Origin: a virus
Reading direction: 5' to 3' (one strand)
DNA: 28,351 nt
IMG/VR virus record: IMGVR_UViG_3300045988_146736
Span: 1 to 28,351 of that record
Within the stretch, counting starts at the first letter, position 1; the number at the start of each line of letters is the position of its first letter. The translations under genes and the position numbers were made by a program. Positions 1-28,351 of the stretch are shown here, piece after piece. Below the pieces are notes generated by a model. That model made no database searches and was not told the origin of the DNA. It was given only the letters and a program-made list of their open reading frames with translations.

Positions 1-32
1 GATTGTCAGGATGCGCGTGTTTCGCGTGTTCA
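1..32. repeat. Terminal direct repeat, copy 1 (identical to 28320..28351); most likely the overlap of a circularised assembly
   Basis: Direct comparison: gattgtcaggatgcgcgtgtttcgcgtgttca occurs at both ends of the window. Confidence 0.9.
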
Positions 33-556: not shown

Positions 557-1057
557 TCAGACGGCGCGGAGCTGGGGTGCTTCGGTTGTGCGGGGTGCGG
601 TGATTTCGGGAGGTGGGGCGGGGACGCCTGCGACGTCGTAGCCGCGTTGGCGGGCGGCGGCGTTGATCTGTGCGGGCGTCATGTCGGGGTGCGCGTCCAT
701 AGCGAACGCCTGGGCGGCGCGCAGCCATGTGACGTACTCGGACGGTGTCAGGTCGCCGTCGGGGTATAGCGGGCCGCCGTGTGACGGTGCGGAGACGAGG
801 GTGAGTCGGTTCGCGCGGTCGATCCGCTCGGCTTCGGTGGGTGTGCCCTTCAGGAAGTTCACGAGGTCGCCGAGGCGGACAAAGCCGGTGGTTTCGTCGA
901 GGACGTCGGCGGCGCGGGCGAGGTCGGCGTCTGTGGCGTCGGGAAACTTTCGGCTTATCTTTCCGCCCCACGTCTGTAGCTGGCCGGGCTTTGGGATGAG
1001 CACCCCGGCATCCTCGAGGTGTTCGAGGAAGGCTTGCATTCCACGTCCGGTAATCAT
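557..1057 (-). CDS. Hypothetical protein (166 aa)
   Basis: The ATG overlaps the upstream stop (ATGA at 1054..1057), which suggests translational coupling. The competing Arg-rich ORF 534..1073 is a high-GC alternative-frame artefact. Confidence 0.65.
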   Translation of the reverse strand: MITGRGMQAFLEHLEDAGVLIPKPGQLQTWGGKISRKFPDATDADLARAADVLDETTGFVRLGDLVNFLKGTPTEAERIDRANRLTLVSAPSHGGPLYPDGDLTPSEYVTWLRAAQAFAMDAHPDMTPAQINAAARQRGYDVAGVPAPPPEITAPRTTEAPQLRAV

Positions 1058-1923
1058 TCGCGGGTCCCTTCAATGGTGAGGATGGCTGCTTCGGTGGGCT
1101 GTGCGCCCCAGGCGGCGTCGATTTCGGCGGCCTTAGCGCGCTGTCGGGCGCGGAACTCTTCGGCGCGGGTGACGTGGGGGCGCGCGCCCCGCTCGGCCTG
1201 TAGCTTCAGGGTGTCCCACTTTTCGCGGAGCTTTGGGATGCTTAGGATGTTGGCTCGCCAGAACTCGGATCGATGTACCCAGTCGATTGCGGCGTGAATC
1301 TGTTCCTCGGTGCGCCCGTCGCGGTCGATCATGAGTCGGGCGGAATCGAGCCACTTCTTCGTGATACGGGGGCGGCGTCCGGTGCGTTCACAGACGGAGT
1401 TAGCCATGTGATAGCAAACTGACTCGACGTCGCGGCGAACGTTTGTTGGTTCGGGCGTGACTATGACCGAGTCGAGGACACTGTCGTCGTCGGTCGCGGT
1501 CGGTGTGGGGTCCGGCGCGGGCGCGGGCGCGGCGTCGGGTTCGGCGGCGTCCTGTGCGGCGCGGGCGCGTTGGCGTGCTTTGCGTTCGCGTGCGGCGGCT
1601 TTGCGGGCGTCGCTTTTCGCGGTGATGTCCCCCCATGTCCCGTTCCACCGTGTCCACGAGGTTACGGTGATTGTGGTCGCGGCGGCGGTGACGAGGCCGT
1701 GTGTGGTGAGGGCGTCGAGGCGGGCGGCGGCGTCGGTTAGGCCGAGGCGGCTTGTGGCGACCTCGACGGGGACAGCTCCGTCGGTTTCGGGGTGCAGGGC
1801 ACACCATGACAGGAGGCGGATGTAGAGAAGCTCGGCGTCTGGTCCGGCGGCGATGACGGCGGGGTCGTCGTAGTAGCCGCCTGCGAGGGCGGCGTATCTG
1901 CCGGGGCGCTTGAAGGGGGGCAT
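1054..1923 (-). CDS. Putative replication initiator / DnaD-like replisome organiser (289 aa)
   Basis: ORF 1054..1992 trimmed to the ATG at 1923 (GAAAGG upstream). The C-terminal segment ...ITKKWLDSARLMIDRDGRTEEQIHAAIDWVHRSEFWRANILSIPKLREKWDTLKLQ fits the DnaD-like / conserved phage C-terminal replication-protein pattern. An Ala/Pro/Asp linker sits in the middle. The gene lies next to the repeat array. Confidence 0.55.
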   Translation of the reverse strand: MPPFKRPGRYAALAGGYYDDPAVIAAGPDAELLYIRLLSWCALHPETDGAVPVEVATSRLGLTDAAARLDALTTHGLVTAAATTITVTSWTRWNGTWGDITAKSDARKAAARERKARQRARAAQDAAEPDAAPAPAPDPTPTATDDDSVLDSVIVTPEPTNVRRDVESVCYHMANSVCERTGRRPRITKKWLDSARLMIDRDGRTEEQIHAAIDWVHRSEFWRANILSIPKLREKWDTLKLQAERGARPHVTRAEEFRARQRAKAAEIDAAWGAQPTEAAILTIEGTRE

Positions 1924-1963
1924 TGCGTGTGCCTTTCGGTCGGGGCGGTGCGTCACTAGCCAT

Positions 1964-1992
1964 ATGCTAGCGGCTGGGGGGGGGCGCGTCAA
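1964..1992 (-). promoter_or_regulatory. Predicted promoter of the replication operon (TTGACG-17-TAGCAT)
   Basis: Minus strand: -35 TTGACG (1992..1987), 17-nt spacer, -10 TAGCAT (1969..1964, fits TANNNT). It sits 41 nt upstream of the ATG at 1923. The spacer contains a 9-nt C run (G run on the plus strand, 1976..1984). Confidence 0.45.
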
Positions 1993-2084
1993 ACGCTAGC
2001 CGGTTGCGCGCCAGTCGGTGACGCGTGAGCGTCGCCGACGTGATTTTATCCCTCATCCTTTATCTTCTCCTTCATCCTTGCGCG

Positions 2085-2420
2085 CATGTCCCGCGTGACA
2101 TCACGCGCATGTCACACACCTATGTCACGCGTGACGTGAGCGTGACAATGAGGGTTAGGGGTGGGCGCATTTTTCGGTGGGATGGGGCGGTTTGTCGGGG
2201 TGGAGCGGTATATTTCCTGGCATATTTTGCGCTACTTTCCCACTCGGATGTCACGCCGGATGTCACGCGATTTTGCCCCCGGTGTCACGCGCGTTTTTTC
2301 CGATGTCACACGACGTTACGCACCCGGTCACGCGCATGTCACACGTGACTTCACGCGTGACATGTGGCGTGACTGCGGGCGTGGCAGCTGATTGGCAACG
2401 CGTGTTGCAGGTCACGCAAT
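2085..2420. repeat. Iteron-like array of GTCAC(G/A)C motifs (candidate origin of replication or operator array)
   Basis: Exact GTCAC at 2111, 2124, 2250, 2262, 2284, 2305, 2327, 2338 and 2411. Exact GTGAC at 2095, 2131, 2142, 2345, 2357 and 2369. Most extend to (C/G)ATGTCACRCG. Palindromes at 2093..2106 and 2124..2135. Perfect 12-bp tandem cggatgtcacgc at 2245..2268. AT-rich patches at 2041..2080 and 2208..2243. Confidence 0.7.
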
Positions 2421-2425
2421 TACCC

Positions 2426-2503
2426 TTGCATACGGCTATGCATAGGTGTATGCTGGGGTCATCGGGAGGAAAGGCCCCCCGATAGACCGAAAGGACCGAA
2501 GCC
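2426..2503 (+). promoter_or_regulatory. Early promoter-leader cassette, copy 1 (TTGCAT-17-TATGCT, 5' hairpin, conserved RBS block)
   Basis: -35 at 2426..2431 and -10 at 2449..2454. A hairpin at 2461..2483 begins about 7 nt after the -10. The AGACCGAAAGGACCGAA block lies directly before the ATG at 2504. Bases 2425..2457 are 33/33 identical to the reverse complement of 7331..7363. Confidence 0.7.
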
Positions 2504-2869
2504 ATGAACACCGAGACCGCGACCACGAACGAAACCATCCGCGACTACCTCGGCGACTTCGCCAATGAGTTCACCGAGGATCAAATCAGCATCATCACCG
2601 CCGCCGCTACAGACGTCGAGGAGCGCATCATCGCCAAGTACGGCGACATGACCCTCGAGGAGCGCGGCGTGATGATGCTGACGCCGCTCGAGGCTATCGT
2701 CGAGTACGTCAGTGATGAGACGACGCTCGCTAAGTGCGTCGGCGACGATGAGCGCCTGGAGGCCGCCCTGATCGCCGGTGCATACAGTGGCCGCCTCACG
2801 GAGCGCCTTGCCGAAGCCGCCGGGATCGACCTGGCCAAGGCGCAGGAGCTCCTCGGGGATCTTGCCTGA
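2504..2869 (+). CDS. Acidic protein of unknown function, paralog A (121 aa), possible C-terminal helix-turn-helix
   Basis: ATG with the conserved RBS block. By eye it aligns along its whole length with the product of 8723..9082 (MNTET..., ITxAAT..EER, YGxMT, RLExAxIAGxYxG, LAxxAGIxLAKAxxxLGxL). I count about 26 Asp/Glu against 9 Arg/Lys. Confidence 0.8.
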   Translation: MNTETATTNETIRDYLGDFANEFTEDQISIITAAATDVEERIIAKYGDMTLEERGVMMLTPLEAIVEYVSDETTLAKCVGDDERLEAALIAGAYSGRLTERLAEAAGIDLAKAQELLGDLA

Positions 2870-2877
2870 CTTACCCC

Positions 2878-2907
2878 GGAGGCCCCGTCCATCCCGGCGG
2901 GGCCTCC
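2878..2907 (+). promoter_or_regulatory. GC-rich hairpin after paralog A (possible attenuator or RNA-stabilising element)
   Basis: ggaggccccg (2878..2887) pairs with cggggcctcc (2898..2907): a 10-bp stem with a 10-nt loop and no U-tract. A hairpin occupies the same position after paralog B. Confidence 0.4.
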
Positions 2908-2930
2908 ACCTCGTGAAAGGATAATACACC

Positions 2931-3152
2931 ATGACCACCATCGAGCCCCCCGACTTCGCGTTCAACTTCAAGACCGGATATGCCCGCATTGGCTCCGAGA
3001 CCATCCGCCCAATCAATGGCATCACCCAGCAGACCAACGGCTTCGGGGCGCATTTCATCACACTGACTATCCCGGTTGCCCGCGTCATCATCGAGGACGA
3101 TCCGACCGGCCCCGTTAACCCGTCCGCCCCTAGCTTCACCGTGCGCCCCTGA
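2931..3152 (+). CDS. Hypothetical protein (73 aa)
   Basis: ATG preceded by GAAAGGA. Same strand as the rest of island 1. No recognisable motif. Confidence 0.55.
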   Translation: MTTIEPPDFAFNFKTGYARIGSETIRPINGITQQTNGFGAHFITLTIPVARVIIEDDPTGPVNPSAPSFTVRP

Positions 3153-6914: not shown

Positions 6915-7283
6915 TCACTCGCTGTCGGCGAGCGCGGCGGCGATAGCCGTGTCAATGGCCGGGTAGGTCGGGCGCTCCTTACCCTCCCACTTGGAGCCCG
7001 CCCACACCTGCGCGGGCCAAAGGCGGCGGGGAAGGACGGCCTCGATGTCCGGCCACTCGCCCGGATCGTCGGATGAGAAGTAGACCTTCTCGCCGAGGAT
7101 GCGGTTCATGACGACGCGAACCTCGTCGTCAATGACGTCGATGTAGATTGCGAGGAGGTTGTCGCCGTCAACGCGGGCCGTGAGGTCTGCGCCGGGCGCG
7201 ATGATGCGCTTCCAGTCGCCGAGGGGCAGCTTGTTCAGGTCGATCCAGTTGAGTTGATCGGCGGAGGTAATGATCGGGTTCAT
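6915..7283 (-). CDS. Hypothetical protein (122 aa), first gene behind early cassette copy 3
   Basis: ORF 6915..7442 trimmed to the ATG at 7283. That ATG is preceded by the same AGACCGAAAGGACCGAAACC block seen upstream of 2504 and 8723. Confidence 0.7.
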   Translation of the reverse strand: MNPIITSADQLNWIDLNKLPLGDWKRIIAPGADLTARVDGDNLLAIYIDVIDDEVRVVMNRILGEKVYFSSDDPGEWPDIEAVLPRRLWPAQVWAGSKWEGKERPTYPAIDTAIAAALADSE

Positions 7284-7362
7284 GGTTTCGGTCCTTTCGG
7301 TCTTTGGGCGGGCGTTTCCCTCCCAATGATCCCAGCATACACCTATGCATAGCCGTATGCAA
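7284..7362 (-). promoter_or_regulatory. Early promoter-leader cassette, copy 3 (inverted relative to copies 1 and 2)
   Basis: Minus strand: -35 TTGCAT (7362..7357), 17-nt spacer, -10 TATGCT (7339..7334), hairpin 7326..7304, then AGACCGAAAGGACCGAAACC-ATG. Confidence 0.7.
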
Positions 7363-7397
7363 GACGCGTTTAGTGATGTGGCATACATAAAGTGAAA

Positions 7398-7534: not shown

Positions 7535-8545
7535 TTAAATGAGGAAGTCGAGCGGCGCGTCGATCCCCCGCCGGAACCGATCATGAATCAACGGGATATA
7601 GCGCTCGTCGAGCTCACACCCGACCGCGTTCACGCCCTCCATTGCGGCGGCCTGTAGGGTCGTCCCCGACCCGGCGAACGGCTCGAGGATCGTCGCGCCT
7701 GGCCTCACCACAAGCCGGATCAGGTAACGCATGAGATCGAGGGGCTTGACTGTCACGTGCTGCACCCCCCCCACCTTCGGGCGTTCGTGCGTCGGGGCCT
7801 TCGGCTGGTACTTGAAGCTCGGCCAGCTGTGATCGGGCGCGCCCTGTTCGACAGCCGCCGCGAGCGCGGCTTCGCTGACCATGAGGTTAGGCGGGTAGGA
7901 CCCGCCGACGGCGTCCATTGCTGACCGGATGTTCATTGCTCCGGTCCCGAAGGCGCTCACGTTGTCGACTAAGCTGCCCTCGAGTGGCTTTCGAGCCACT
8001 ACGATAGGCTCCCATGCTGGTTTTAGGCCGAGGCCCCAGCCGTCCCATGTCTTAGCCATGTCCGTAACCGGCTCGCCGGAGCTGTGTACCTTGTGGGTGG
8101 ACATATGCGTCGCTGTGTTGCCGCTGTCCCACTTTCTCACGTCGCGCCCCTCGCGCTCGTCGAGAACACCGGCTGCCCTGTCGAACATTGCAGAGAGATT
8201 TACCGCCGCCGGTTTCCTATCGGCGAATATCCATGAGAGTCCATCCCTGACTTCGAAGCCCGCATCCTCAATGCCAGCTGTGAGACGATGGTAGGTTCGC
8301 GGCGACGAAAACGCCAGCAGGTAGCCGCCGGGCTTGATGGTGCGCAGAGCTTCAACTGCCCATGATTCGGCCCATGATTGAAACCCGCGCGGCGTTGCGG
8401 TGTCCCACTTTTCGCCCATGAATGAAATTCCATACGGCGGGTCGGTAATGATCGCGTCGAAGTGATCGGCGGGCATTTCCCGCATGATGTCGCGGCAGTC
8501 GCCGTTGTGGAGGGTAATCCCCTCATAGATTGTTTGTCCGGTCAT
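7535..8545 (-). CDS. DNA methyltransferase, beta-class (N6_N4_Mtase family), probably N6-adenine (336 aa)
   Basis: ORF 7535..8617 trimmed to the ATG at 8545 (the upstream Met codons fall inside the promoter). Motif IV IITDPPYG is near the N-terminus and motif I ILEPFAGSGTT near the C-terminus. There is no adjacent restriction endonuclease. Confidence 0.85.
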   Translation of the reverse strand: MTGQTIYEGITLHNGDCRDIMREMPADHFDAIITDPPYGISFMGEKWDTATPRGFQSWAESWAVEALRTIKPGGYLLAFSSPRTYHRLTAGIEDAGFEVRDGLSWIFADRKPAAVNLSAMFDRAAGVLDEREGRDVRKWDSGNTATHMSTHKVHSSGEPVTDMAKTWDGWGLGLKPAWEPIVVARKPLEGSLVDNVSAFGTGAMNIRSAMDAVGGSYPPNLMVSEAALAAAVEQGAPDHSWPSFKYQPKAPTHERPKVGGVQHVTVKPLDLMRYLIRLVVRPGATILEPFAGSGTTLQAAAMEGVNAVGCELDERYIPLIHDRFRRGIDAPLDFLI

Positions 8546-8579
8546 GGTTGCTCGCTTTGGTAGGTGGCATTGCGTTTCG

Positions 8580-8608
8580 ATAGTAGGGCCATGCATCACT
8601 GTATGCAA
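8580..8608 (-). promoter_or_regulatory. Predicted methyltransferase promoter (TTGCAT-17-TACTAT)
   Basis: Minus strand: TTGCATACagtgATGCATggcccTACTAT. It shares the TTGCATAC-N4-ATGCAT layout with cassette copies 1 and 3, and lies back-to-back with cassette copy 2. Confidence 0.55.
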
Positions 8609-8645
8609 ATCTTCCATATGTGGCTACAGTCTCTTATATCCCTAC

Positions 8646-8722
8646 TTGCATAACGCTATCCACTAGGTGTATGCTGGGGGTATCCCCTGAAGGGCAGGGG
8701 ACAGACCGAAAGGACCGAAACC
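8646..8722 (+). promoter_or_regulatory. Early promoter-leader cassette, copy 2
   Basis: -35 TTGCAT at 8646..8651, 18-nt spacer, -10 TATGCT at 8670..8675. Hairpin tcccctg/cagggga at 8683..8701, then AGACCGAAAGGACCGAAACC-GTG. Confidence 0.65.
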
Positions 8723-9082
8723 GTGAACACCGAGACCGTTATCAAGATGGTTGGCGACTTCTTTGACCTCACCGCCGAGGACTTCACCCCCAAGCAGCTC
8801 GCCGTCATCACCGAAGCCGCGACCGAAATCGAGGAGCGCCTCGCTAGGTACGGCGAGATGACGACGTTCGAGAAGAACATCATGATGCACGGCGCTATGG
8901 GTGCCGTCGTTGACTACGCGAGCGGATGCACGCCCCTGGCCGAGTTCATCTACGATGACGCCCGCCTGGAGGGCGCGATGATCGCGGGCATCTACGCAGG
9001 CAAGACCACGGCCCAGCTCGCCAACGAAGCGGGCATCACGCTTGCCAAGGCGTCGCGCATCCTCGGCAGCCTTGACTTCTGA
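8723..9082 (+). CDS. Acidic protein of unknown function, paralog B (119 aa)
   Basis: GTG start in the conserved leader context. The first 15 coding nt after the start codon are identical to those of 2504..2869. The protein aligns with paralog A over its full length. Confidence 0.8.
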   Translation: MNTETVIKMVGDFFDLTAEDFTPKQLAVITEAATEIEERLARYGEMTTFEKNIMMHGAMGAVVDYASGCTPLAEFIYDDARLEGAMIAGIYAGKTTAQLANEAGITLAKASRILGSLDF

Positions 9083-12300: not shown

Positions 12301-14499
12301 CTAGATGGGGATCACAATCGCGGAAATGTCGCGATGTGACCACTTGCTGAACCCTGTTGATGCGTCCGTTCCGAACCATAGGCTGGTTTTGATCGCCCAC
12401 GTGCCGCTAGTTGGGAGGTCCTTCAGCATGGTCAGCATTGTTAGCTGACCGGAGTCCCAACCATTGTACGAGTATTGGTTCGGAGTTTCGTACAATCGGC
12501 TACCGTTGACCTGAATGTCTCCCCACCGGTAAGCGGGTGACTGGACGCCCATGTCGTAGGACGACACGACGAGGATCATCGCGCGGCCCGACGACGACGC
12601 GGGGACCGTGAAGTTAGTGACCGAATAGCCCGATGAGCTGGGCGGATAGGTGCCAGCCCACGCGTAACCGGACGCGCCGAAAATGATCGACGCAAGCGAA
12701 AGGAGCGCGTCAGACGTCGGCGACTTGATCGCCATACCGTAGGGCTGCGCCGGGTCCAGCACAACGTATGGCTTTCCACCCTTACTAACGATCAGCTTAT
12801 CAGGGCCGAGCGTGACGGCGTTCGCGCCGGACCCGGCAACGATGGTTTTACCGGTGATCCTGTCGGCGATCAGGTCGCCGCCGATCTTGGCCGTCCCGGC
12901 TACCAGTTGGTCAGTGGTGACCTTCAGGAACTTACCGGTTGCGGCGGCGACGGATTGGGCGTTGATCTTGGTCGCGTCCACGGACCCGGCGGCGATCTTC
13001 GGTGCGGTGATTGCGCCGTCCCTGATGTCTACTGCGCCGGTGGCCTTGTGGACGTCGACGTGACCGACGAACATCGGCGCGCTGACCGGTGCGCCCGTAG
13101 CGGCCAGGCACACTGGTTCGACGCTCATCCTGACCGCACGGTCGGGAACTGTCACCTGGGCGTCGCCTCCGACCGTGAACCACTTGTTTACCGGGTGGTT
13201 AGTGATCGGCACTGTTGACCCGCATACGGGGGCCGCTACGCGCGTTCCGTCCTCCGCGTAGAACGCAACGCGGACGCCGAACCCGCCGCCGCCGAGGCGG
13301 GTCATAGGCGCGACGGCGTGCCATGCGGCGGACGCGATAACGGCGTCACCGGGCTTGCACGGGACACGGTTCGCGGGTGACAGGACAGGACCGACTATCG
13401 TCGGGTCAGAAACGCCCATTGGGCGGGCCGTGACCATCGCGGCGCGCGCGTGACCGAGGTACTGGGTCGGCGGGGACGTGAATTGCCCGGGCTCGCTGAT
13501 TGTCCACACGCCGTTTTCCGCGTGGTCGAAGTATGGGTCAGGCATGAGGTTGTCAGACATGACCGTGATCGCCGTCGCGGCGACCTTCCCGAGGAACGCG
13601 CGGTCCGCGATTAGCGTGTCAATAACGGCACTGTTGAACTTCGCGCCGCCCGCTACGGTCAGTTTGTTGACCGCCAGGTCAGAGATTTTCGCGTTTGTGA
13701 CAGACGCGTCGGCGATCTGTGCCGTGCCTACGGCGAGGTCACCGATTTGTGCGCGCCCGATAGCCTTTGCGCCGATGTAGTCCGCGCCGATACCGACGCG
13801 CGTCCACGTGCCCGACGTGAGGACCCAGCGGCGGACCATTGTCGCGCCGTCACGGACCTCCCACAACGCGCCCTCGGGCTTTCCCGTGGCGTCGGCGGGC
13901 GCGGGGTCACGTGTGGCGACGGTGATCGCGCCGTTCGGCGTGGCCTGGCCACCCCCCGATTGGGCGAGCGCGTCGGCGGCGTCCTGCGCGGCCTTCGTCG
14001 CCTTTGTGAGCGCGTCGCGGGCGTTGGTTGCGGCGGCGTCGGCGGCGTCCTGCGCGGCCTTCACGCCGTCCTGTGCGGCCTTCACCGCACGTTCCACTTC
14101 CGCCTTCGACGCGGTCAGGTCGGCGCGCGCTTCGGCGAGCTGTGAGTCAAGCAGGCTAACCCGCTTGTGCGCGTCCACGATCTGACGACCGGTTTCACCG
14201 ACCGGTAGGACGGTGGCCCCGGCGGGCGTGGCCCCGGCGGGCGCACTGACCGACGCGACGCGGCCAGTCGAATCACGCGGGAGGGTCACGCGCGCCCCGA
14301 CGTAGGTCAGACCGGCGTCTGCGCGGGCGACCACGTGGGACCCGTCGGCCCCGTCGATAGCGACCGAGACGAGCCCCTGACCGGCGTCAACAACGCTCGT
14401 TACCCACCCGGTCAGGGTGGTGTCAGGGGCCGCGAGCTGATCGGCGACCGCCGCCTCGTCGGGCACTAGGTCGAGGAATGGGGAAAGGCTTATATCCAT
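12301..14499 (-). CDS. Large minor tail protein, candidate receptor-binding / tail fibre protein (732 aa)
   Basis: GGAGGAA RBS. Coiled-coil stretch with three KAAQD repeats, fibre-like repeats (AIGRAQIGDLAVGTAQIADASVTNAKISDLAVNKLTV), and a large C-terminal domain. Position is after the tail hub genes. Confidence 0.7.
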   Translation of the reverse strand: MDISLSPFLDLVPDEAAVADQLAAPDTTLTGWVTSVVDAGQGLVSVAIDGADGSHVVARADAGLTYVGARVTLPRDSTGRVASVSAPAGATPAGATVLPVGETGRQIVDAHKRVSLLDSQLAEARADLTASKAEVERAVKAAQDGVKAAQDAADAAATNARDALTKATKAAQDAADALAQSGGGQATPNGAITVATRDPAPADATGKPEGALWEVRDGATMVRRWVLTSGTWTRVGIGADYIGAKAIGRAQIGDLAVGTAQIADASVTNAKISDLAVNKLTVAGGAKFNSAVIDTLIADRAFLGKVAATAITVMSDNLMPDPYFDHAENGVWTISEPGQFTSPPTQYLGHARAAMVTARPMGVSDPTIVGPVLSPANRVPCKPGDAVIASAAWHAVAPMTRLGGGGFGVRVAFYAEDGTRVAAPVCGSTVPITNHPVNKWFTVGGDAQVTVPDRAVRMSVEPVCLAATGAPVSAPMFVGHVDVHKATGAVDIRDGAITAPKIAAGSVDATKINAQSVAAATGKFLKVTTDQLVAGTAKIGGDLIADRITGKTIVAGSGANAVTLGPDKLIVSKGGKPYVVLDPAQPYGMAIKSPTSDALLSLASIIFGASGYAWAGTYPPSSSGYSVTNFTVPASSSGRAMILVVSSYDMGVQSPAYRWGDIQVNGSRLYETPNQYSYNGWDSGQLTMLTMLKDLPTSGTWAIKTSLWFGTDASTGFSKWSHRDISAIVIPI

Positions 14500-24804: not shown

Positions 24805-24893
24805 AGGTTCCCTTTCCGGTTGGTTGACTTTTGTCTCCAATGGTACACACCGCCGCGCTGTGATAGGGGATCGGCATATCACACCGCCCACAT

Positions 24894-24922
24894 TGGCATT
24901 ATGCATCACATGTGCATATAAT
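24894..24922 (+). promoter_or_regulatory. Predicted promoter of the HTH gene (TGGCAT-17-TATAAT)
   Basis: -35 at 24894..24899 and a consensus -10 TATAAT at 24917..24922, 29 nt before the ATG. The leader AGACCGttcagAAAGGACCGAc resembles the early-cassette RBS block. Confidence 0.6.
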
Positions 24923-24951
24923 GATGCAAAGACCGTTCAGAAAGGACCGAC

Positions 24952-25269
24952 ATGACCGACATCGCCGAGCGCCGCTCGGACCTGCTGATTTCACAGACTG
25001 ACTTCGGGCGGCTCGCCGCCGGGGTGAAACAGACATCCGTCTCACGTTGGGAGCGGGGTAAGCACATCGAGCAATCTGACATGTTGGACAATGTGCTTGA
25101 CTCCGCCGAAGCAAAGCGGCGCGCGCTGACACGCTTCATTCACAAGGACCGACCGCGCTTCGCGGTCACGGAGGCCGATTATCGGGAGCGTTTCCCGGAT
25201 TATTGCCCAATCATCCCCTATGCCCTGTATCGCATCATTCATAACGCGGTACACGACATGACTACATGA
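24952..25269 (+). CDS. Cro/CI (XRE)-type helix-turn-helix regulator (105 aa)
   Basis: Motif ISQTDFGRLAAGVKQTSVSRWERGKH is a classic HTH_3 pattern. It is the only plus-strand gene in the late region, and its 3' end overlaps the terminase stop tail-to-tail by 8 nt. Confidence 0.8.
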   Translation: MTDIAERRSDLLISQTDFGRLAAGVKQTSVSRWERGKHIEQSDMLDNVLDSAEAKRRALTRFIHKDRPRFAVTEADYRERFPDYCPIIPYALYRIIHNAVHDMTT

Positions 25270-26788
25270 CGACAACGCCGCCGCCGCGCCGCCCCTGAGC
25301 GTTCCCACCACGGAGCGCACGGGGGCGGCGTCGCGTTGTACGGGCGATCCAGTACGCCGCCGACGCCGCGTCGAGCGGGGACGGGTCGCCGTCTTCTACG
25401 GTGGCCGCCCATCCCCAGGCCCCGTCCTGACCGCGCAGGCGCTTGTCGCACGTGGCTACCGCGCGGTTCAGGAGGTCGTCACGTTCGCCCTTCGGGTGGG
25501 TCAGGTGCTTTTCACGCACCGCATCGAGGAACAGGGACGTTGCCCCGAAATACTCGCCGGTACTCATGATGTGGATCATGGGCTTTGGGACGCCGCGCTC
25601 ACGCAGCGCTTCGGCGAGGACACCCGACCCGGCGCGCCCGAGGATCGCAATCTCCGCGATCCGGTGACGCCGTTCGGCGATCCAATCGGCGAGCTGCGCG
25701 ACGCCGACGTCCGCGCGCCCTGAGTACGCGCCGATTAGTTCGACGTGACCGCCGTCCTCGGTCCTGACCGCGCCCGCGACGGCCTGGTGAAGCCCGTCCG
25801 CCGTGAAGGACACGCCAATCGTGCGCACGCCCTCCGACTCATCCGGCGGCGTCGTGGTCGCCGTTGCCGACCATTGGGCGGGCGTAATCAGGCGCTTTGC
25901 GCCCGCGTCCTGACGCCAGATTCCGAGCCGGTCCTGTGCGAACCGTTCGGGCGTGTAGGTCTCGTATTCGCCTTGCACGACCTCGTGGTTAATTAGGCTG
26001 TTCCACGACGGGTTAGCCTGCCACCTGGTCAGCTCCGACGCCGGGTCGAAGTCGGCGGCGTCAGGGTCCGCGCCCCATTCGACCCACGCCGACGCCGTGG
26101 ACTTCCCCGACATGGCCGCCTTCCTGACCATGTCGAAGGTGTAGCAATCGTCCTCATCCTGTGGGGGCGTGCCGAGGAGCCACACCTGCGGGTTGGCGCG
26201 CGCGGATATCGTTGAGTTGATCGACGTCCACGCCCGGGACCCAAGGATCTGTGCCTCATCGAGGAGGAGGCAATCTGAGCTGAAACCCTTGCCGCCCGCG
26301 CCGGAGCGGGCCTTGAACTTGATCTTCGCGCCATTCTTGAACTTGACGGACTCGCGTCCAAAGGCGTTCATGACGCCGTTTTTTGCCAGGCGGTCACGGA
26401 GCCCCTGGTTTTCGTCGGCTTCGACGATCTCTAGGAGCTTTTCGAAGGTTTCGCGGGCCGTGTCTTGCTGATGGGCGGACACGACGATGAGGCGCTCCCC
26501 GAAAATCAATGCGCCCGCGAGCGCCCGCGCGACGAGGAGCTGGCTCTTGCCGTTCTGACGGGGCACGGACACGCCGACGCGCTTTGCCGCCCACGTGCCG
26601 TTTGCCTGTTCGCCCATCGCGGCGTCCAACACGAGCTCCTGCCACGGTAGGAGCGTGACGCCCAACATCGCGGACAGGTCGGCGACGTCTTCCCAGCCGT
26701 TAGACCGCTCGCCCTCGGGGCGGACGAGGACGCGCGGCGGGGCCTCCCCTAGCAGCGCGACGTCGGGCGAGTTCGTCGAACGGGTCAA
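25262..26788 (-). CDS. terL: Terminase large subunit (508 aa)
   Basis: Walker A-like VSVPRQNGKSQL, LLLDEAQ (Walker B), and a C-terminal nuclease-type region. The TTG start at 26788 is preceded by AGAAGGA. Confidence 0.85.
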   Translation of the reverse strand: MTRSTNSPDVALLGEAPPRVLVRPEGERSNGWEDVADLSAMLGVTLLPWQELVLDAAMGEQANGTWAAKRVGVSVPRQNGKSQLLVARALAGALIFGERLIVVSAHQQDTARETFEKLLEIVEADENQGLRDRLAKNGVMNAFGRESVKFKNGAKIKFKARSGAGGKGFSSDCLLLDEAQILGSRAWTSINSTISARANPQVWLLGTPPQDEDDCYTFDMVRKAAMSGKSTASAWVEWGADPDAADFDPASELTRWQANPSWNSLINHEVVQGEYETYTPERFAQDRLGIWRQDAGAKRLITPAQWSATATTTPPDESEGVRTIGVSFTADGLHQAVAGAVRTEDGGHVELIGAYSGRADVGVAQLADWIAERRHRIAEIAILGRAGSGVLAEALRERGVPKPMIHIMSTGEYFGATSLFLDAVREKHLTHPKGERDDLLNRAVATCDKRLRGQDGAWGWAATVEDGDPSPLDAASAAYWIARTTRRRPRALRGGNAQGRRGGGVVVM

Positions 26789-27268: not shown

Positions 27269-27571
27269 TTACCAGGCTACCAGGGTTGTTGTGGTGCCTG
27301 TTCGGCGGCGCTTTGGAGCGTTGTTGCGCCCGTTCCCGCGCCGTTGATTGCATCGCCTGCATATCGTGCGCCCGTTGTCGAGCGTGTTCGTCCCGCCAAG
27401 CGACCACGGGGTGATGTGGTCGGGTTCGGGGCTGTCCGGTTGCAGGCTGGTGTCCCATGCGAGCGTGACGCCGCAGGTGGGGCAGGTGGTCTGTCCGGCG
27501 GCGCGGTCACGTTTAAGGACGGCTGCACGCCAGCGCTTGTGTCCGGTGGTTCCGGTCCTACTGGTGGTCAT
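27269..27571 (-). CDS. HNH endonuclease (100 aa)
   Basis: CPTCG ... DHITPWSLGGTNTLDNGRTICRRCN (paired CxxC plus the H-N-N/H core). Its position beside the terminase genes is as in cos-type HNH phages. Confidence 0.85.
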   Translation of the reverse strand: MTTSRTGTTGHKRWRAAVLKRDRAAGQTTCPTCGVTLAWDTSLQPDSPEPDHITPWSLGGTNTLDNGRTICRRCNQRRGNGRNNAPKRRRTGTTTTLVAW

Positions 27572-28043
27572 GGTGGGTGGGGGGGGTGGTTGTTGGCGGG
27601 GGGGGGGGTTTGTGGTCCCCCCCCGCCGGGGGGGGTAGAAGGGGGGGGCATTTGGCCAGGGGGTTGGGGGGGGGGGGGGGGGGTTTGTTGGCGGGCGCGC
27701 CGTGCGCTGGTGCGGGGCGCGGTTCCTTGGCGACCTTGGGGAACCGGAGGACGATCTTTTGGCCGGGCTGGCCGTTTTTGGTCGTGTAGGTTTCGAGGGC
27801 GAGGGCGCCCGTTGCGATCACGGGGTCCCCCTTGCGTAGGAGCTCGGCGGCGGCTTCGGCGTCGGCGTCCCATAGGGTCGCGTTGATCCACAGGGGCGCG
27901 CCGTCGTCCTCCCACTCGCCGGTCTGTCGGTTTTTGCGGCGGGGGGTGGCCGCGATGGATAGCTCGAGGACGGCGTGGCCGCCCTGTGTCCATCGGAGCA
28001 CGGGTTCGGCGATCCGGCCTGTGATGGTTGCTGTTGCTGGCAT
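27558..28043 (-). CDS. ssb: Single-stranded DNA-binding protein (OB fold) with a Pro-rich tail of uncertain reading frame (161 aa as read)
   Basis: The N-terminal 100 aa fit the SSB OB-fold pattern (ITGRIAEPVLRWTQGGHAV...LWDADAEAAAELLRKGDPVIATGAL). The C-terminus is encoded by C homopolymers and lacks the usual acidic tip. Confidence 0.75.
   Translation of the reverse strand: MPATATITGRIAEPVLRWTQGGHAVLELSIAATPRRKNRQTGEWEDDGAPLWINATLWDADAEAAAELLRKGDPVIATGALALETYTTKNGQPGQKIVLRFPKVAKEPRPAPAHGAPANKPPPPPPNPLAKCPPLLPPPAGGDHKPPPPPTTTPPTHHDHQ
27579..27683. repeat. Cluster of long G/C homopolymers (G8, G11, C8, G8, G8, G5, G18 on the plus strand)
   Basis: Counted directly: runs at 27579..27586, 27598..27608, 27617..27624, 27628..27635, 27641..27648, 27659..27663 and 27666..27683. 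Confidence 0.9.
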
Positions 28044-28058: not shown

Positions 28059-28351
28059 TTAGTCGCGGGTGGGGAGGTTGCGTGATGCGCGGGCGATGTC
28101 CGCGAAGGCGCGCATCGGGTCATAGTTTCGGTACTCATCGATGATACGCTGCCGTTCGGCGTCGGTGTCGATGGTGTACTCGATGCGGAGCCCGACGTGG
28201 TGCGCGTCAACGTACTCGACGGCGGTCGGTTCAATGCTGATTGCTTCGGCGTCATCGGGTAGCTTGCGGAGGGCTTTGGCGATGTCGCGGAGCTTCACTG
28301 GCTTGTCGGACGCCCAGGTGATTGTCAGGATGCGCGTGTTTCGCGTGTTCA
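28059..28351 (-). CDS. Hypothetical protein, gene split by the linearisation point (97 aa when wrapped; start codon is 33,32,31)
   Basis: The frame of ORF 28059..28298 stays open to the window end. Bases 28350..28351 (equal to 31..32) plus base 33 form an ATG with GAAAGG (47..42) 8 nt upstream and an ATGA overlap with the stop of gene 30..233. The GTG at 28298 has no RBS. Confidence 0.65.
   Translation of the reverse strand, partial: NTRNTRILTITWASDKPVKLRDIAKALRKLPDDAEAISIEPTAVEYVDAHHVGLRIEYTIDTDAERQRIIDEYRNYDPMRAFADIARASRNLPTRD
28320..28351. repeat. Terminal direct repeat, copy 2
   Basis: Identical to 1..32. Confidence 0.9.

What the first reader, a model, noticed from the sequence alone, without database searches (positions are those of the whole stretch)
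1952..2420. Dense GTCAC(G/A)C motif array with AT-rich patches: candidate origin of replication or multi-site operator
The 580-bp gap 1924..2503 is much the largest non-coding stretch in the genome. It lies between the divergent replication-operon promoter and early cassette copy 1.
- Motif count: 15 exact GTCAC/GTGAC cores in both orientations fall within 2095..2415, with two more at 1952 and 2018 and several one-mismatch copies. Most extend to (C/G)ATGTCACRCG.
- Chance expectation: my rough estimate for this base composition is about one such 5-mer in that length.
- Internal structure: palindromes GCGTGAcaTCACGC (2093..2106) and GTCACGCGTGAC (2124..2135), plus a perfect 12-bp tandem at 2245..2268.
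- AT-rich patches at 2041..2080 and 2208..2243 could act as unwinding elements.
- The last motif ends 6 bp before the -35 of cassette copy 1, so the array could also control both flanking promoters.
- No repeat-binding protein is assigned. The adjacent DnaD-like protein is the obvious candidate.
Basis: partly seen in the sequence, partly recalled or inferred. Interest (0 to 1): 0.75.

Follow-up and report, generated by a model that had tools for sequence, protein, structure and literature searches.

The report
Phage replication origin with GTCAC iterons
The dense GTCAC repeat array is real and is most likely the phage's origin of DNA replication: a set of binding sites for the initiator protein encoded next door, placed beside an easily melted stretch, which is an ordinary kind of element in a phage family where it had not been described.

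Summary
Fifteen GTCAC/GTGAC cores lie in 2095-2415, against about 1.2 expected, and a weight matrix finds 18 sites forming two clusters (2084-2150 and 2246-2377) plus one isolated site at 2407.

The array is conserved in Actinomyces phage LC001 and in 12 metagenomic relatives. These include a subgroup whose initiators are only 61-64% identical. Motif columns are more conserved than spacer columns (93% against 76%).

The adjacent gene 1054-1923(-) encodes an O-like/DnaD-like replication initiator.

A motif-only scan of IMG/VR returned 120 unrelated phage contigs with phased GTCACRC arrays. In 53 of them the array lies inside or beside a replication-initiator gene, against 0 of 120 for a permuted control motif. 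The N-terminal domain of the window's initiator is homologous to one of those families, which also shares the 11-12 bp repeat spacing.

A pyrimidine-rich, AT-rich tract (2041-2080) flanks cluster A. It is the second least stable duplex stretch in the genome, and the same purine/pyrimidine-asymmetric tract accompanies 31% of the other arrays (1% expected).

Best reading: a lambda-like iteron origin placed upstream of the initiator gene rather than inside it. A resemblance to host MtrA boxes is noted but is probably coincidental. No binding or replication assay exists.

The parts
1054..1923 (-). Replication initiator gene (289 aa). It has an N-terminal putative winged-helix iteron-binding domain (about residues 10-118), a disordered linker (about 128-162), and a C-terminal O-like/DnaD-like replisome-organizer domain (about 160-256).
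   Evidence: PHROG hits are phrog_2447 and phrog_1882 (replication initiation protein, N-terminal part) and phrog_2514, 391 and 4880 (DnaD-like loader, O-like, replisome organizer; C-terminal part). tblastn matches the C-terminal domain to phage genes annotated as replication protein O or replisome organizer. The AlphaFold model shows helix/beta-hairpin topology at residues 20-95 with pLDDT 76-87. hhalign matches the N-terminal domain to cluster 2 initiators at 97.8%.
1952..1992 (-). Leftward promoter of the replication operon: -35 TTGACG at 1992-1987 and -10 TAGCAT at 1969-1964. The palindrome CTAGC-N5-GCTAG (1956-1970) overlaps the -10. One GTCAC lies at 1952-1956, near the expected transcription start.
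   Evidence: This is the only promoter-like site found by the scan of 1800-3000. The palindrome is unique in the genome. The palindrome arms and the GTCAC are conserved in most relatives.
2014..2039 (+). Conserved inverted repeat forming an 11-bp-stem hairpin. Its function is unknown. It may be a cruciform or a single-strand hairpin at the edge of the unwinding element.
   Evidence: As DNA it folds at -13.5 kcal/mol, z = -3.99. Two stem pairs change on both sides between the subgroups: GTCGGTGACGC/GCGTCGCCGAC against GTCGGAAACGC/GCGTTTTCGAC. The scan flags it as terminator-like, but the T-run is not conserved in group 2.
2041..2080 (+). Pyrimidine-rich (33 of 40 on the + strand), AT-rich tract made of TCCTT/CATCCTT repeats. 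This is the putative DNA-unwinding element.
   Evidence: It is 62.5% AT and is the second least stable 30- and 40-bp duplex window in the genome, about 3.5 sd from the mean. It is one of only two purine/pyrimidine-asymmetric tracts (>=22 of 24) in the genome; the other is a G18 run near 27666. Group 2 has CTACTCCTTTAT repeated about three times at the same place. The same kind of tract lies within 100 nt of 37 of 120 GTCAC arrays elsewhere, against 1% expected.
2084..2150 (.). Iteron cluster A: 7 sites. The 14-mer starts are 2084+, 2090-, 2096+, 2107+, 2120+, 2126- and 2137-. The + strand series is spaced 12, 11 and 13 bp.
   Evidence: Weight-matrix scan. In close relatives, site columns are 96% identical against 65% for non-site columns.
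2151..2245 (.). Spacer between the two clusters. It has a G-rich part (2151-2207, poorly conserved) and an AT-rich patch (2208-2243, conserved only in the close subgroup).
   Evidence: Alignment A2 and the duplex stability ranking.
2246..2377 (.). Iteron cluster B: 10 sites. The direct run has 14-mer starts at 2246, 2258, 2280, 2301, 2323, 2334 and 2346 on the + strand (the cores lie 4 nt downstream of each start). The inverted sites start at 2340, 2352 and 2364 on the - strand. The exact + strand cores (2250-2338) are spaced 12, 22, 21, 22 and 11 bp, which puts them on one face of the helix. T-tracts fill the 21-22 bp gaps.
   Evidence: In close relatives, site columns are 92% identical against 77% for non-site columns. 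The cluster is conserved in group 2 with drifted spacers.
2407..2420 (+). Isolated iteron-like site just upstream of the early promoter. Initiator bound here could influence early transcription.
   Evidence: It scores 13.3 bits and is conserved in group 1. In group 2 a GTCAC lies 9 nt further from the -35.
2425..2509 (+). Early promoter cassette copy 1 (-35 TTGCAT at 2426-2431, -10 TATGCT at 2449-2454, 5' leader and start codon). It transcribes away from the array.
   Evidence: It is repeated in inverted orientation at 7278-7363 and partly at 8700-8747. It is conserved in all relatives.

Best explanation
The region 2014-2420 is the phage's origin of replication, of the iteron type.

**Proposed mechanism (inferred, not shown)**
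1. The initiator encoded at 1054-1923(-) binds through its N-terminal winged-helix-like domain to the roughly 10-bp sites ATGTCAC(G/A)CG. These are arranged in two clusters at 11-12 bp (or 21-22 bp) spacing, so the bound proteins line up on one face of the helix and form a nucleoprotein complex.
2. That complex melts the adjacent AT-rich, pyrimidine/purine-asymmetric tract at 2041-2080. The two flanking promoters fire outward and would generate negative supercoiling between them, which may help melting.
3. The C-terminal O-like/DnaD-like domain then recruits the host replicative helicase. The phage encodes an SSB, and no DnaB-like helicase gene was found among the proteins that were scanned.

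**What is shown**
- The array is real and enriched.
- It is conserved, with its spacers drifting.
- The neighbouring gene encodes an initiator.
- Across phages, GTCAC arrays are statistically linked to homologous initiator N-terminal domains.
- The melting-prone tract is present.

**What is inferred**
- Binding of the initiator to the sites, unwinding of the tract, helicase loading and replication start.
- Sites near the two promoters (1952 and 2407) may additionally let the initiator tune its own transcription and early transcription.
For: **Enrichment**
- 15 cores in 320 bp against about 1.2 expected, and 13 strong weight-matrix sites inside the gap against 4 in the rest of the genome.

**Conservation**
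- The array keeps the same layout in LC001 and in 12 IMG/VR relatives. These include a subgroup whose initiators are 61-64% identical.
- Motif columns are 93% identical against 76% for the others, circular-shift p = 0.003.

**The neighbouring gene**
- It is a replication initiator by PHROG profiles and by tblastn to phage O and replisome-organizer genes.

**Independent association across phages**
- A motif-only scan of IMG/VR gave 120 loci.
- In 53 of them an initiator-family ORF overlaps the array (50 loci) or lies within 60 nt of it (3 loci).
- A DnaB helicase gene lies within 2.5 kb in 16 loci.
- The composition-matched control motif GCTACRC gave 0 of 120 initiator hits and 1 DnaB hit.

**Domain and geometry match**
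- The window's N-terminal domain matches the cluster 2 initiators (hhalign 97.8%, E 1e-12), whereas its C-terminal domain does not.
- L068 has a direct homolog of the initiator (phmmer 4.6e-46) and the same layout of a pyrimidine tract followed by GTCACGC at 12-bp spacing.
- Array period tracks the initiator family: 10 bp in cluster 0, and 11-12 bp in clusters 2 and 8 and in the window.

**Unwinding element**
- The tract 2041-2080 is the second least stable stretch of the genome.
- A purine/pyrimidine-asymmetric tract flanks 31% of GTCAC arrays against 1% expected.

**Specificity change in a diverged relative**
- L016, a diverged relative, carries a different 11-bp-spaced repeat (CACTGAGG) followed by a purine tract. 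This is consistent with binding specificity changing along with the protein.

**Analogy**
- Lambda's origin consists of iterons plus an AT-rich tract within the O gene (PMC7466680).
Against: - No experiment exists: no binding assay, no origin mapping and no autonomous-replication test.
- The structure model is of modest quality (mean pLDDT 64). The fold search gave only non-significant winged-helix matches (E >= 0.4).
The initiator profiles were built from the same hit set, so only the control comparison is unbiased.
- 67 of the 120 loci had no recognised initiator nearby, and some are clearly coding repeats (for example L070).
- Unlike lambda and most of the other arrays, this array lies upstream of the initiator gene rather than inside it.
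- The second AT-rich patch and the G-rich spacer are not conserved.
- GC skew follows gene orientation and says nothing about replication.
Confidence: 0.75

Rival explanations
1. The array is mainly a multi-site transcriptional operator. A phage regulator (the initiator itself, the weak HTH protein at 24952-25269, or the small paralogous early proteins) would bind the GTCAC sites to control the two divergent promoters, with no role in starting replication.
For: The array lies between two divergent promoters. One GTCAC sits at about +1 of the leftward promoter (1952) and one sits 8 nt upstream of the early -35 (2411-2417). Iteron-binding initiators often repress their own genes (general knowledge of plasmid Rep proteins).
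Against: - The other two copies of the same early promoter cassette (7363-, about 8647+) have no GTCAC sites.
- Group 2 has about 50 bp of extra tandem repeats inserted between the array and the early promoter, so the array-to-promoter distance is not constrained.
- In other phages the same arrays lie inside initiator genes, far from promoters.
- No homolog of the paralogs or of the HTH protein was found near those arrays.
- Roughly 18 sites spread over 330 bp, next to a melting-prone tract, is more than promoter control would need.
Confidence: 0.1
2. The sites are mimics of host MtrA boxes. The host's essential OmpR-family response regulator MtrA would bind the array and couple phage replication or early transcription to the host cell-envelope and cell-cycle state, or the array would titrate MtrA away from host targets.
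For: - MtrA sites in Mycobacterium are direct repeats of GTCACAgcg, and four such boxes lie inside the M. tuberculosis oriC (PMC4285127).
- ChIP-seq gives a 9-nt direct repeat with 2-nt spacing, an 11-bp period (PMC6265350).
- The dnaA promoter box is CACGCCG (PMC2945938).
- The Streptomyces site is GTnAcC-n5-GTnAcn (PMC13189361).
- The phage motif is GTCAC(G/A)CG in direct pairs 11-12 bp apart.
- The host of the close relative LC001 is an actinobacterium.
Against: - The same phased GTCAC arrays with flanking purine tracts occur in phage contigs of 42-47% GC, which are unlikely to infect Actinobacteria (L057, L108, L139). There they are embedded in initiator genes.
- Array period follows the phage initiator family.
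- No literature links MtrA to phages.
- The host MtrA regulon could not be examined with the tools available.
Confidence: 0.05
3. The array is a packaging recognition site (pac or cos) bound by the small terminase subunit, or some other cis site such as a partition centromere.
For: Packaging sites of some pac phages contain clustered short repeats (general knowledge). The small terminase subunit was not confidently identified here.
Against: - The ends of the LC001 record map to window position about 27601, next to an HNH endonuclease gene (27269-27571) and the large terminase gene (25262-26788). That arrangement is typical of cos phages, and it is about 2.7 kb from the array across the circular junction.
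- The array sits beside the initiator gene, not beside terminase genes.
- No ParB-like gene is nearby.
- Across phages the arrays associate with initiators and DnaB, not with terminases.
Confidence: 0.03

Closest known systems
Bacteriophage lambda origin (ori-lambda) with O protein
   Same: - A cluster of initiator-binding repeats lies directly beside an AT-rich tract that unwinds.
- The initiator has an N-terminal iteron-binding part and a C-terminal part that brings in the helicase.
- The C-terminal domain here matches O-like PHROGs and phage genes annotated as replication protein O.
- In relatives such as L068 the array lies in the middle of the initiator gene, as in lambda (PMC7466680).
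   Different: - Here the whole origin lies upstream of the gene, between divergent promoters.
- The repeat units are about 10-bp asymmetric sites in both orientations at 11-12 bp spacing, with about 18 copies in two clusters. Lambda has four to six longer iterons.
- The N-terminal domain shows no detected sequence similarity to lambda O.
- No P-like loader was identified.
Bacillus phage SPP1 oriL/oriR with G38P (replisome organizer, DnaD-like); stated from my own knowledge, not tested here
   Same: A DnaD-like replisome-organizer initiator binds short repeated boxes next to an AT-rich region. The C-terminal domain here hits PHROGs named replisome organizer and DnaD-like helicase loader, and Bacillus phage replisome-organizer genes.
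   Different: The repeat sequence and number differ. SPP1 encodes its own helicase and loader. SPP1 oriL lies inside gene 38.
Satellite phage P4 ori/crr with alpha protein; stated from my own knowledge, not tested here
   Same: Many copies of a short (8-bp) site in direct and inverted orientation are arranged in two separated clusters, both needed for replication.
   Different: The initiator is unrelated (a primase-helicase), the motif is different (TGTTCACC), and the host is gamma-proteobacterial.
MtrA boxes of Mycobacterium tuberculosis oriC and MtrA regulon promoters
   Same: GTCAC core, direct-repeat organisation, an 11-bp period, and location in a replication origin of an actinobacterial replicon.
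   Different: The binder would be a host response regulator. The resemblance rests on a 5-6 nt core. Identical arrays occur in low-GC phages alongside homologous phage initiators.

Membership tests
Iteron-type phage replication origin (lambda ori / O-like initiator kind) | Cluster of repeated short sites far above chance | tested here: met
   15 cores against about 1.2 expected. There are 18 weight-matrix sites, and at >=13 bits 13 lie inside the gap against 4 in the rest of the genome.
Iteron-type phage replication origin (lambda ori / O-like initiator kind) | Easily melted AT-rich tract directly beside the repeats | tested here: met
   2041-2080 is 62.5% AT and is the second least stable 30/40-bp window of the genome. 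It lies 4 nt from cluster A.
Iteron-type phage replication origin (lambda ori / O-like initiator kind) | Initiator gene adjacent to or overlapping the repeats | tested here: met
   Gene 1054-1923(-) matches replication-initiator PHROGs. The array starts about 160 nt upstream of its start codon.
Iteron-type phage replication origin (lambda ori / O-like initiator kind) | The initiator binds the repeats | not testable with these tools
   Only indirect evidence is available. GTCAC arrays co-occur with homologous N-terminal domains in 53 of 120 loci against 0 of 120 for the control. Array period tracks the initiator family.
Iteron-type phage replication origin (lambda ori / O-like initiator kind) | [quoted passage not shown] | tested here: not met
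   In the window and its 12 close relatives the array is intergenic and upstream. It lies inside the gene in 50 other loci, including the homolog in L068.
Iteron-type phage replication origin (lambda ori / O-like initiator kind) | Supports replication initiation or autonomous replication | not testable with these tools
   This needs origin mapping or plasmid replication assays.
DnaD-like / replisome-organizer initiators | C-terminal DnaD-like/O-like domain | tested here: met
   phrog_2514 at 5.9e-20, phrog_391 at 9e-19 and phrog_4880 at 2.7e-15 over residues 181-255. tblastn hits Bacillus replisome-organizer genes and Lactobacillus DnaD-like loader genes. There is no Pfam hit.
DnaD-like / replisome-organizer initiators | N-terminal winged-helix DNA-binding domain | tested here: inconclusive
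   The model has helix-strand-helix-helix-hairpin topology at residues 28-92 with pLDDT 76-87. The top PDB matches are all winged-helix proteins, but E >= 0.4.
Host MtrA-box cluster | Half-site GTnAC / GTCACAgcg in direct repeats with an 11-bp period | tested here: met
   The consensus is ATGTCAC(G/A)CG, with direct pairs 11-13 bp apart, compared with published motifs. This is a resemblance only.
Host MtrA-box cluster | Bound by MtrA, and the motif matches the host's own MtrA regulon | not testable with these tools
   The host genome could not be retrieved. No relative was found in the reference genomes.
Host MtrA-box cluster | Confined to phages of Actinobacteria | tested here: not met
   The same arrays occur in contigs of 42-47% GC, inside initiator genes (L057, L108, L139).
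DnaA-dependent origin (oriC-like) | DnaA boxes (TTGTCCACA / TTATCCACA) in the region | tested here: not met
   No box with <=1 mismatch lies in 1924-2503. The nearest perfect box is at 13500, inside a gene.
pac/cos packaging site | Location at the genome ends or beside terminase genes | tested here: not met
   The ends of the LC001 record map to about 27601, beside the HNH and TerL genes, which is about 2.7 kb from the array.

The most novel reading that the evidence does not exclude
The GTCAC sites do double duty. Besides binding the phage initiator, they mimic the binding sites of the host's essential cell-cycle and cell-wall response regulator MtrA (GTCAC direct repeats with an 11-bp period, as in the M. 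tuberculosis oriC). MtrA occupancy would then gate phage replication or early transcription according to the host's growth state, or the replicating phage DNA would titrate MtrA away from host targets. This could relate to LC001 infecting only surface-grown Schaalia.
Probability: 0.06. Interest if true: 0.8.

Novelty: new member of a known kind. Interest (0 to 1): 0.4.

Why it matters
- It gives a concrete, testable origin for a family of lytic phages of oral Actinomycetaceae. That family includes LC001, a model phage in Saccharibacteria-host-phage studies whose GenBank record is unannotated.
- The 1924-2503 fragment plus gene 1054-1923 is a candidate minimal replicon for Schaalia and Actinomyces, which have few genetic tools.
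- More broadly, one signature marks origins in many unrelated phage contigs: GTCAC repeats at 10-12 bp spacing, a purine/pyrimidine-asymmetric tract, and a particular initiator N-terminal domain. It could serve as a simple computational predictor of phage origins.
- The comparison also shows an origin module that lies either inside the initiator gene or just upstream of it.

Tried and rejected
- **DnaA boxes:** none in the region.
- **GC skew as an origin marker:** it follows gene orientation and is uninformative.
- **Prophage or host copies of the initiator:** none found in 185k reference genomes, so no host naming and no host loci were obtained.
- **Using the number of IMG/VR hits as an enrichment measure:** Only the gene-context comparison was used.
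- **Fold search of the initiator model:** no significant PDB match.
- **Repeats upstream of more distant initiator relatives (L015-L019):** no upstream array, because those genes sit inside operons. Looking inside the genes instead showed other repeats or purine tracts.
- **Literature:** nothing found on GTCAC iterons or on MtrA and phages. The LC001 genome paper (PMC9472602) is not held.
- **Hairpin 2014-2039 as an intrinsic terminator:** rejected, because no + strand gene or promoter was identified upstream of it and the T-run is not conserved in group 2.
- **G-quadruplex reading of the G-rich spacer 2151-2207:** dropped, because the G-runs are not conserved in close relatives.
- **Coding-repeat explanation of the arrays in other phages:** rejected for most, because 10- and 11-bp periods are not multiples of three.
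Full report
**What the window is**

The window is a 65% GC phage genome. Its first 32 bases repeat its last 32, so it is a circularly closed assembly of about 28.3 kb.

The only close relative among deposited phages is Actinomyces phage LC001 (ON920540.1). LC001 is lytic on Schaalia odontolytica XH001, is about 90% identical to the window, and its record is unannotated.

Genes left of the finding run leftward and wrap round the window end:
- the initiator at 1054-1923;
- an SSB at 27558-28043;
- an HNH endonuclease at 27269-27571;
- the large terminase at 25262-26788.

Genes right of the finding run rightward. They start from a promoter cassette (2425-2509) that is repeated at 7278-7363 and partly at 8700-8747.

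**The observation**

- There are 17 GTCAC/GTGAC cores in the 580-bp gap, 15 of them in 2095-2415. Density is 29 per kb against 3.8 per kb elsewhere, and no other 330-bp window holds more than 5.
- GTCACRC occurs 32 times in the genome against 15.9 +/- 3.9 in shuffles, and 14 of those copies are in the array.
- A weight matrix built from the copies gives the consensus ATGTCAC(G/A)CG. Eighteen sites score >=8 bits in the gap. At >=13 bits there are 13 sites in the gap and 4 in the other 27.8 kb.
- The sites form cluster A (2084-2150, 7 sites in both orientations), cluster B (2246-2377, 10 sites) and an isolated site at 2407.
- In cluster B the exact + strand cores are spaced 12, 22, 21, 22 and 11 bp. 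This places them on one face of the helix.
- The palindromes, the 12-bp tandem and both AT-rich patches are confirmed.

**Conservation**

A search with the initiator protein found 18 IMG/VR loci. Twelve of them hold the upstream region together with a close relative of the initiator, and all twelve carry 16-22 cores at matching positions. Four of these (L010-L013) have initiators only 61-64% identical to the window's.

The alignment shows the same order of elements in all of them:
1. leftward promoter;
2. inverted repeat;
3. pyrimidine-rich tract;
4. cluster A;
5. variable spacer;
6. cluster B;
7. early promoter.

Site columns are 93% identical among close relatives, against 76% for the other columns (circular-shift p = 0.003).

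Indels in relatives break the ORFs that the six-frame list shows inside the gap, so the region is non-coding.

**What lies beside the array**

Gene 1054-1923(-) matches PHROG families in two parts:
- over its N-terminal part, families named replication initiation protein (phrog_2447 and phrog_1882);
- over residues 181-255, families named DnaD-like helicase loader, replication initiation O-like and replisome organizer.

tblastn links the C-terminal domain to 423 phage records. These include genes annotated as replication protein O, replisome organizer and DnaD-like loader.

An AlphaFold model is of modest overall quality (mean pLDDT 64). Residues 20-95 are better (pLDDT 76-87) and have helix/beta-hairpin topology. 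The PDB fold search returns only winged-helix proteins at the top, but none is significant.

**The decisive comparison**

I scanned IMG/VR for three phased GTCACRC copies, using no protein information. Many of them hold 8-17 cores in 600 bp at 10-12 bp spacing.

Clustering the ORFs within 2.5 kb of each array showed two things:
- the array lies inside a 270-350 aa gene in three related protein clusters;
- a DnaB helicase gene often follows about 400 bp downstream.

PHROG names those genes replication initiation proteins. For cluster 2 and for L068 the families are the same ones the window's initiator hits (phrog_2447 and phrog_1882).

Profiles built from the clusters find an initiator-family ORF in 53 of the 120 loci. 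In 50 the ORF overlaps the array, and in 3 it lies within 60 nt.

The same pipeline was run on a composition-matched control motif (GCTACRC), which also returned 120 loci. It finds none, and DnaB is found in 1 control locus against 16.

Further links between the array and the initiator's N-terminal domain:
- The window's N-terminal domain (residues 10-118) aligns to cluster 2 with 97.8% probability (E 1e-12), whereas its C-terminal domain matches none of the clusters. The part of the protein shared with other GTCAC-array phages is therefore the presumed DNA-binding part.
- Array geometry follows the protein family. The period is 10 bp in cluster 0, and 11-12 bp in clusters 2 and 8 and in the window.
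- Periods of 10 and 11 bp exclude a simple coding-repeat explanation.
- L068 encodes a direct homolog of the initiator (phmmer 4.6e-46). It shows a (CTCCTTT)n pyrimidine tract followed by GTCACGC at 12-bp spacing, which is the layout seen at 2041-2150.
- A more diverged relative, L016, has a different repeat (CACTGAGG) at 11-bp spacing followed by a purine tract. This is what one expects if binding specificity changes along with the protein.

**The unwinding element**

The tract 2041-2080 is 62.5% AT and has 33 of 40 pyrimidines on the + strand. It is the second least stable 30- and 40-bp window in the genome.

Tracts with >=22 of 24 purines or pyrimidines occur at only two places in the genome. 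One is here and the other is a G18 run near 27666.

Across the 120 other loci, such a tract lies within 100 nt of the GTCAC cluster in 37 cases (31%), against 1% at random places in the same loci.

The second AT-rich patch (2208-2243) is conserved only in the close subgroup.

**Other elements in the gap**

- An inverted repeat at 2014-2039 folds into an 11-bp-stem hairpin (-13.5 kcal/mol as DNA, z = -4.0). Two stem pairs differ on both sides between the subgroups. It is not a convincing terminator, and its role is unknown.
- The leftward promoter (-35 at 1992-1987, -10 at 1969-1964) is overlapped by a unique palindrome, CTAGC-N5-GCTAG. A GTCAC lies near the expected transcription start.

**Mechanism proposed**

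The initiator binds the two iteron clusters through its N-terminal domain and oligomerises along one face of the helix. It opens the adjacent asymmetric AT-rich tract. Its O-like/DnaD-like C-terminal domain then brings in the host helicase.

The two promoters flanking the origin fire outward. Under the twin-domain model of transcription-driven supercoiling, this would favour melting between them; that point is inference. Sites at 1952 and 2407 may add feedback on transcription.

The binding, melting and loading steps are all inferred. The sequence features and the cross-phage statistics are shown.

**Rivals**

- *Pure operator.* This is unlikely because the other two copies of the early promoter lack the motif. 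In addition, group 2 has about 50 bp of extra tandem repeats inserted between the array and the promoter.
- *Packaging site.* This is unlikely because the ends of the LC001 record map to window position about 27601, beside the HNH and terminase genes.
- *DnaA boxes.* These are absent from the region.
- *Host MtrA boxes.* This lead is striking. MtrA boxes are GTCACAgcg direct repeats with an 11-bp period and are found in the M. tuberculosis oriC. However, the same arrays occur in phage contigs of 42-47% GC alongside homologous initiators, which makes a host-specific explanation unnecessary. I could not retrieve the host genome to test it.

**Comparison and verdict**

The element works like the lambda origin: iterons plus an AT-rich tract, and an O protein whose domain order is the same (PMC7466680). 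It differs in three ways:
- it lies upstream of the initiator gene rather than inside it;
- it uses short asymmetric sites in two clusters;
- its N-terminal domain shows no detected sequence similarity to lambda O's.

It is a new member of a known kind. It is well supported computationally and untested experimentally. The interest is moderate: it is useful for Schaalia and Actinomyces genetics and as a general signature for finding phage origins.

Noticed in passing
window 1-32 and 28320-28351: The first 32 bases are identical to the last 32. This is a circular-assembly overlap, so the window is a complete, circularly permuted genome of about 28,319 bp, and the leftward operon that starts at the array continues across the window end.
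   Followed up: yes
window about 27601; G18 run at 27666-27683: Both ends of the LC001 GenBank record map to about 27601, between the HNH endonuclease gene (27269-27571) and the SSB gene, next to an 18-G homopolymer. This is probably the cos or physical-end region, but it was not verified.
   Followed up: partly
window 1956-1970: A perfect palindrome, CTAGC-CATAT-GCTAG, overlaps the -10 of the leftward (replication operon) promoter. It is unique in the genome, and its arms are conserved in the distant subgroup with a different spacer. It is a candidate operator for an unidentified dimeric regulator.
   Followed up: partly
window 2014-2039: A conserved 11-bp-stem inverted repeat lies between the promoter and the AT-rich tract. 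Two stem pairs differ on both sides between the subgroups. Its function is unknown, and it is not a convincing terminator.
   Followed up: partly
L010-L012, between iteron cluster B and the early promoter (alignment A2 columns about 535-600): Group 2 relatives carry four or five tandem copies of the 10-bp unit GGGGTGCGAT, which is absent from the window's subgroup.
   Followed up: no
window 2425-2509, 7278-7363(-), 8640-8747: There are three copies of an early promoter/leader cassette (TTGCAT-N17-TATGCT, with leader GACCGAAAGGACCGAA). They drive three small paralogous proteins (2504-2869+, about 6915-7283-, 8723-9082+) that have no family match. The initiator gene uses a similar GACCGAAAGG ribosome-binding context.
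   Followed up: partly
window 24892-24932: An AT-rich, partly palindromic stretch (ATTATGCATCACATGTGCATATAATGATGCA) containing a TATAAT lies upstream of the weak-HTH gene 24952-25269, which is the lone + strand gene inside the leftward structural operon. It is among the least stable duplex windows of the genome.
   Followed up: no
window 7535-8617(-): A DNA methyltransferase gene (phrog_67, E 1e-64) sits between early cassette copies 2 and 3.
   Followed up: no
window 1976-1984: A run of nine G lies inside the 17-nt spacer of the leftward promoter. L009 has a much longer and disrupted G-rich stretch at this place. A change in run length could alter promoter spacing.
   Followed up: no
L016 2476-2734; L015 4469-4490; L017 about 1330-1380: More distant initiator relatives carry other in-gene repeats in the linker before the C-terminal domain. 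L016 has CACTGAGG at 11-bp spacing followed by (GGAACA)n. L015 has (CAGAC)n. L017 has (GTCAGAGACAGA)n. This suggests origins with different specificities in the same gene family.
   Followed up: partly
Genome-contig scan: No relative of the initiator was found in 185,579 reference bacterial and archaeal genomes. This is consistent with a strictly lytic phage family that has no prophage copies.
   Followed up: yes
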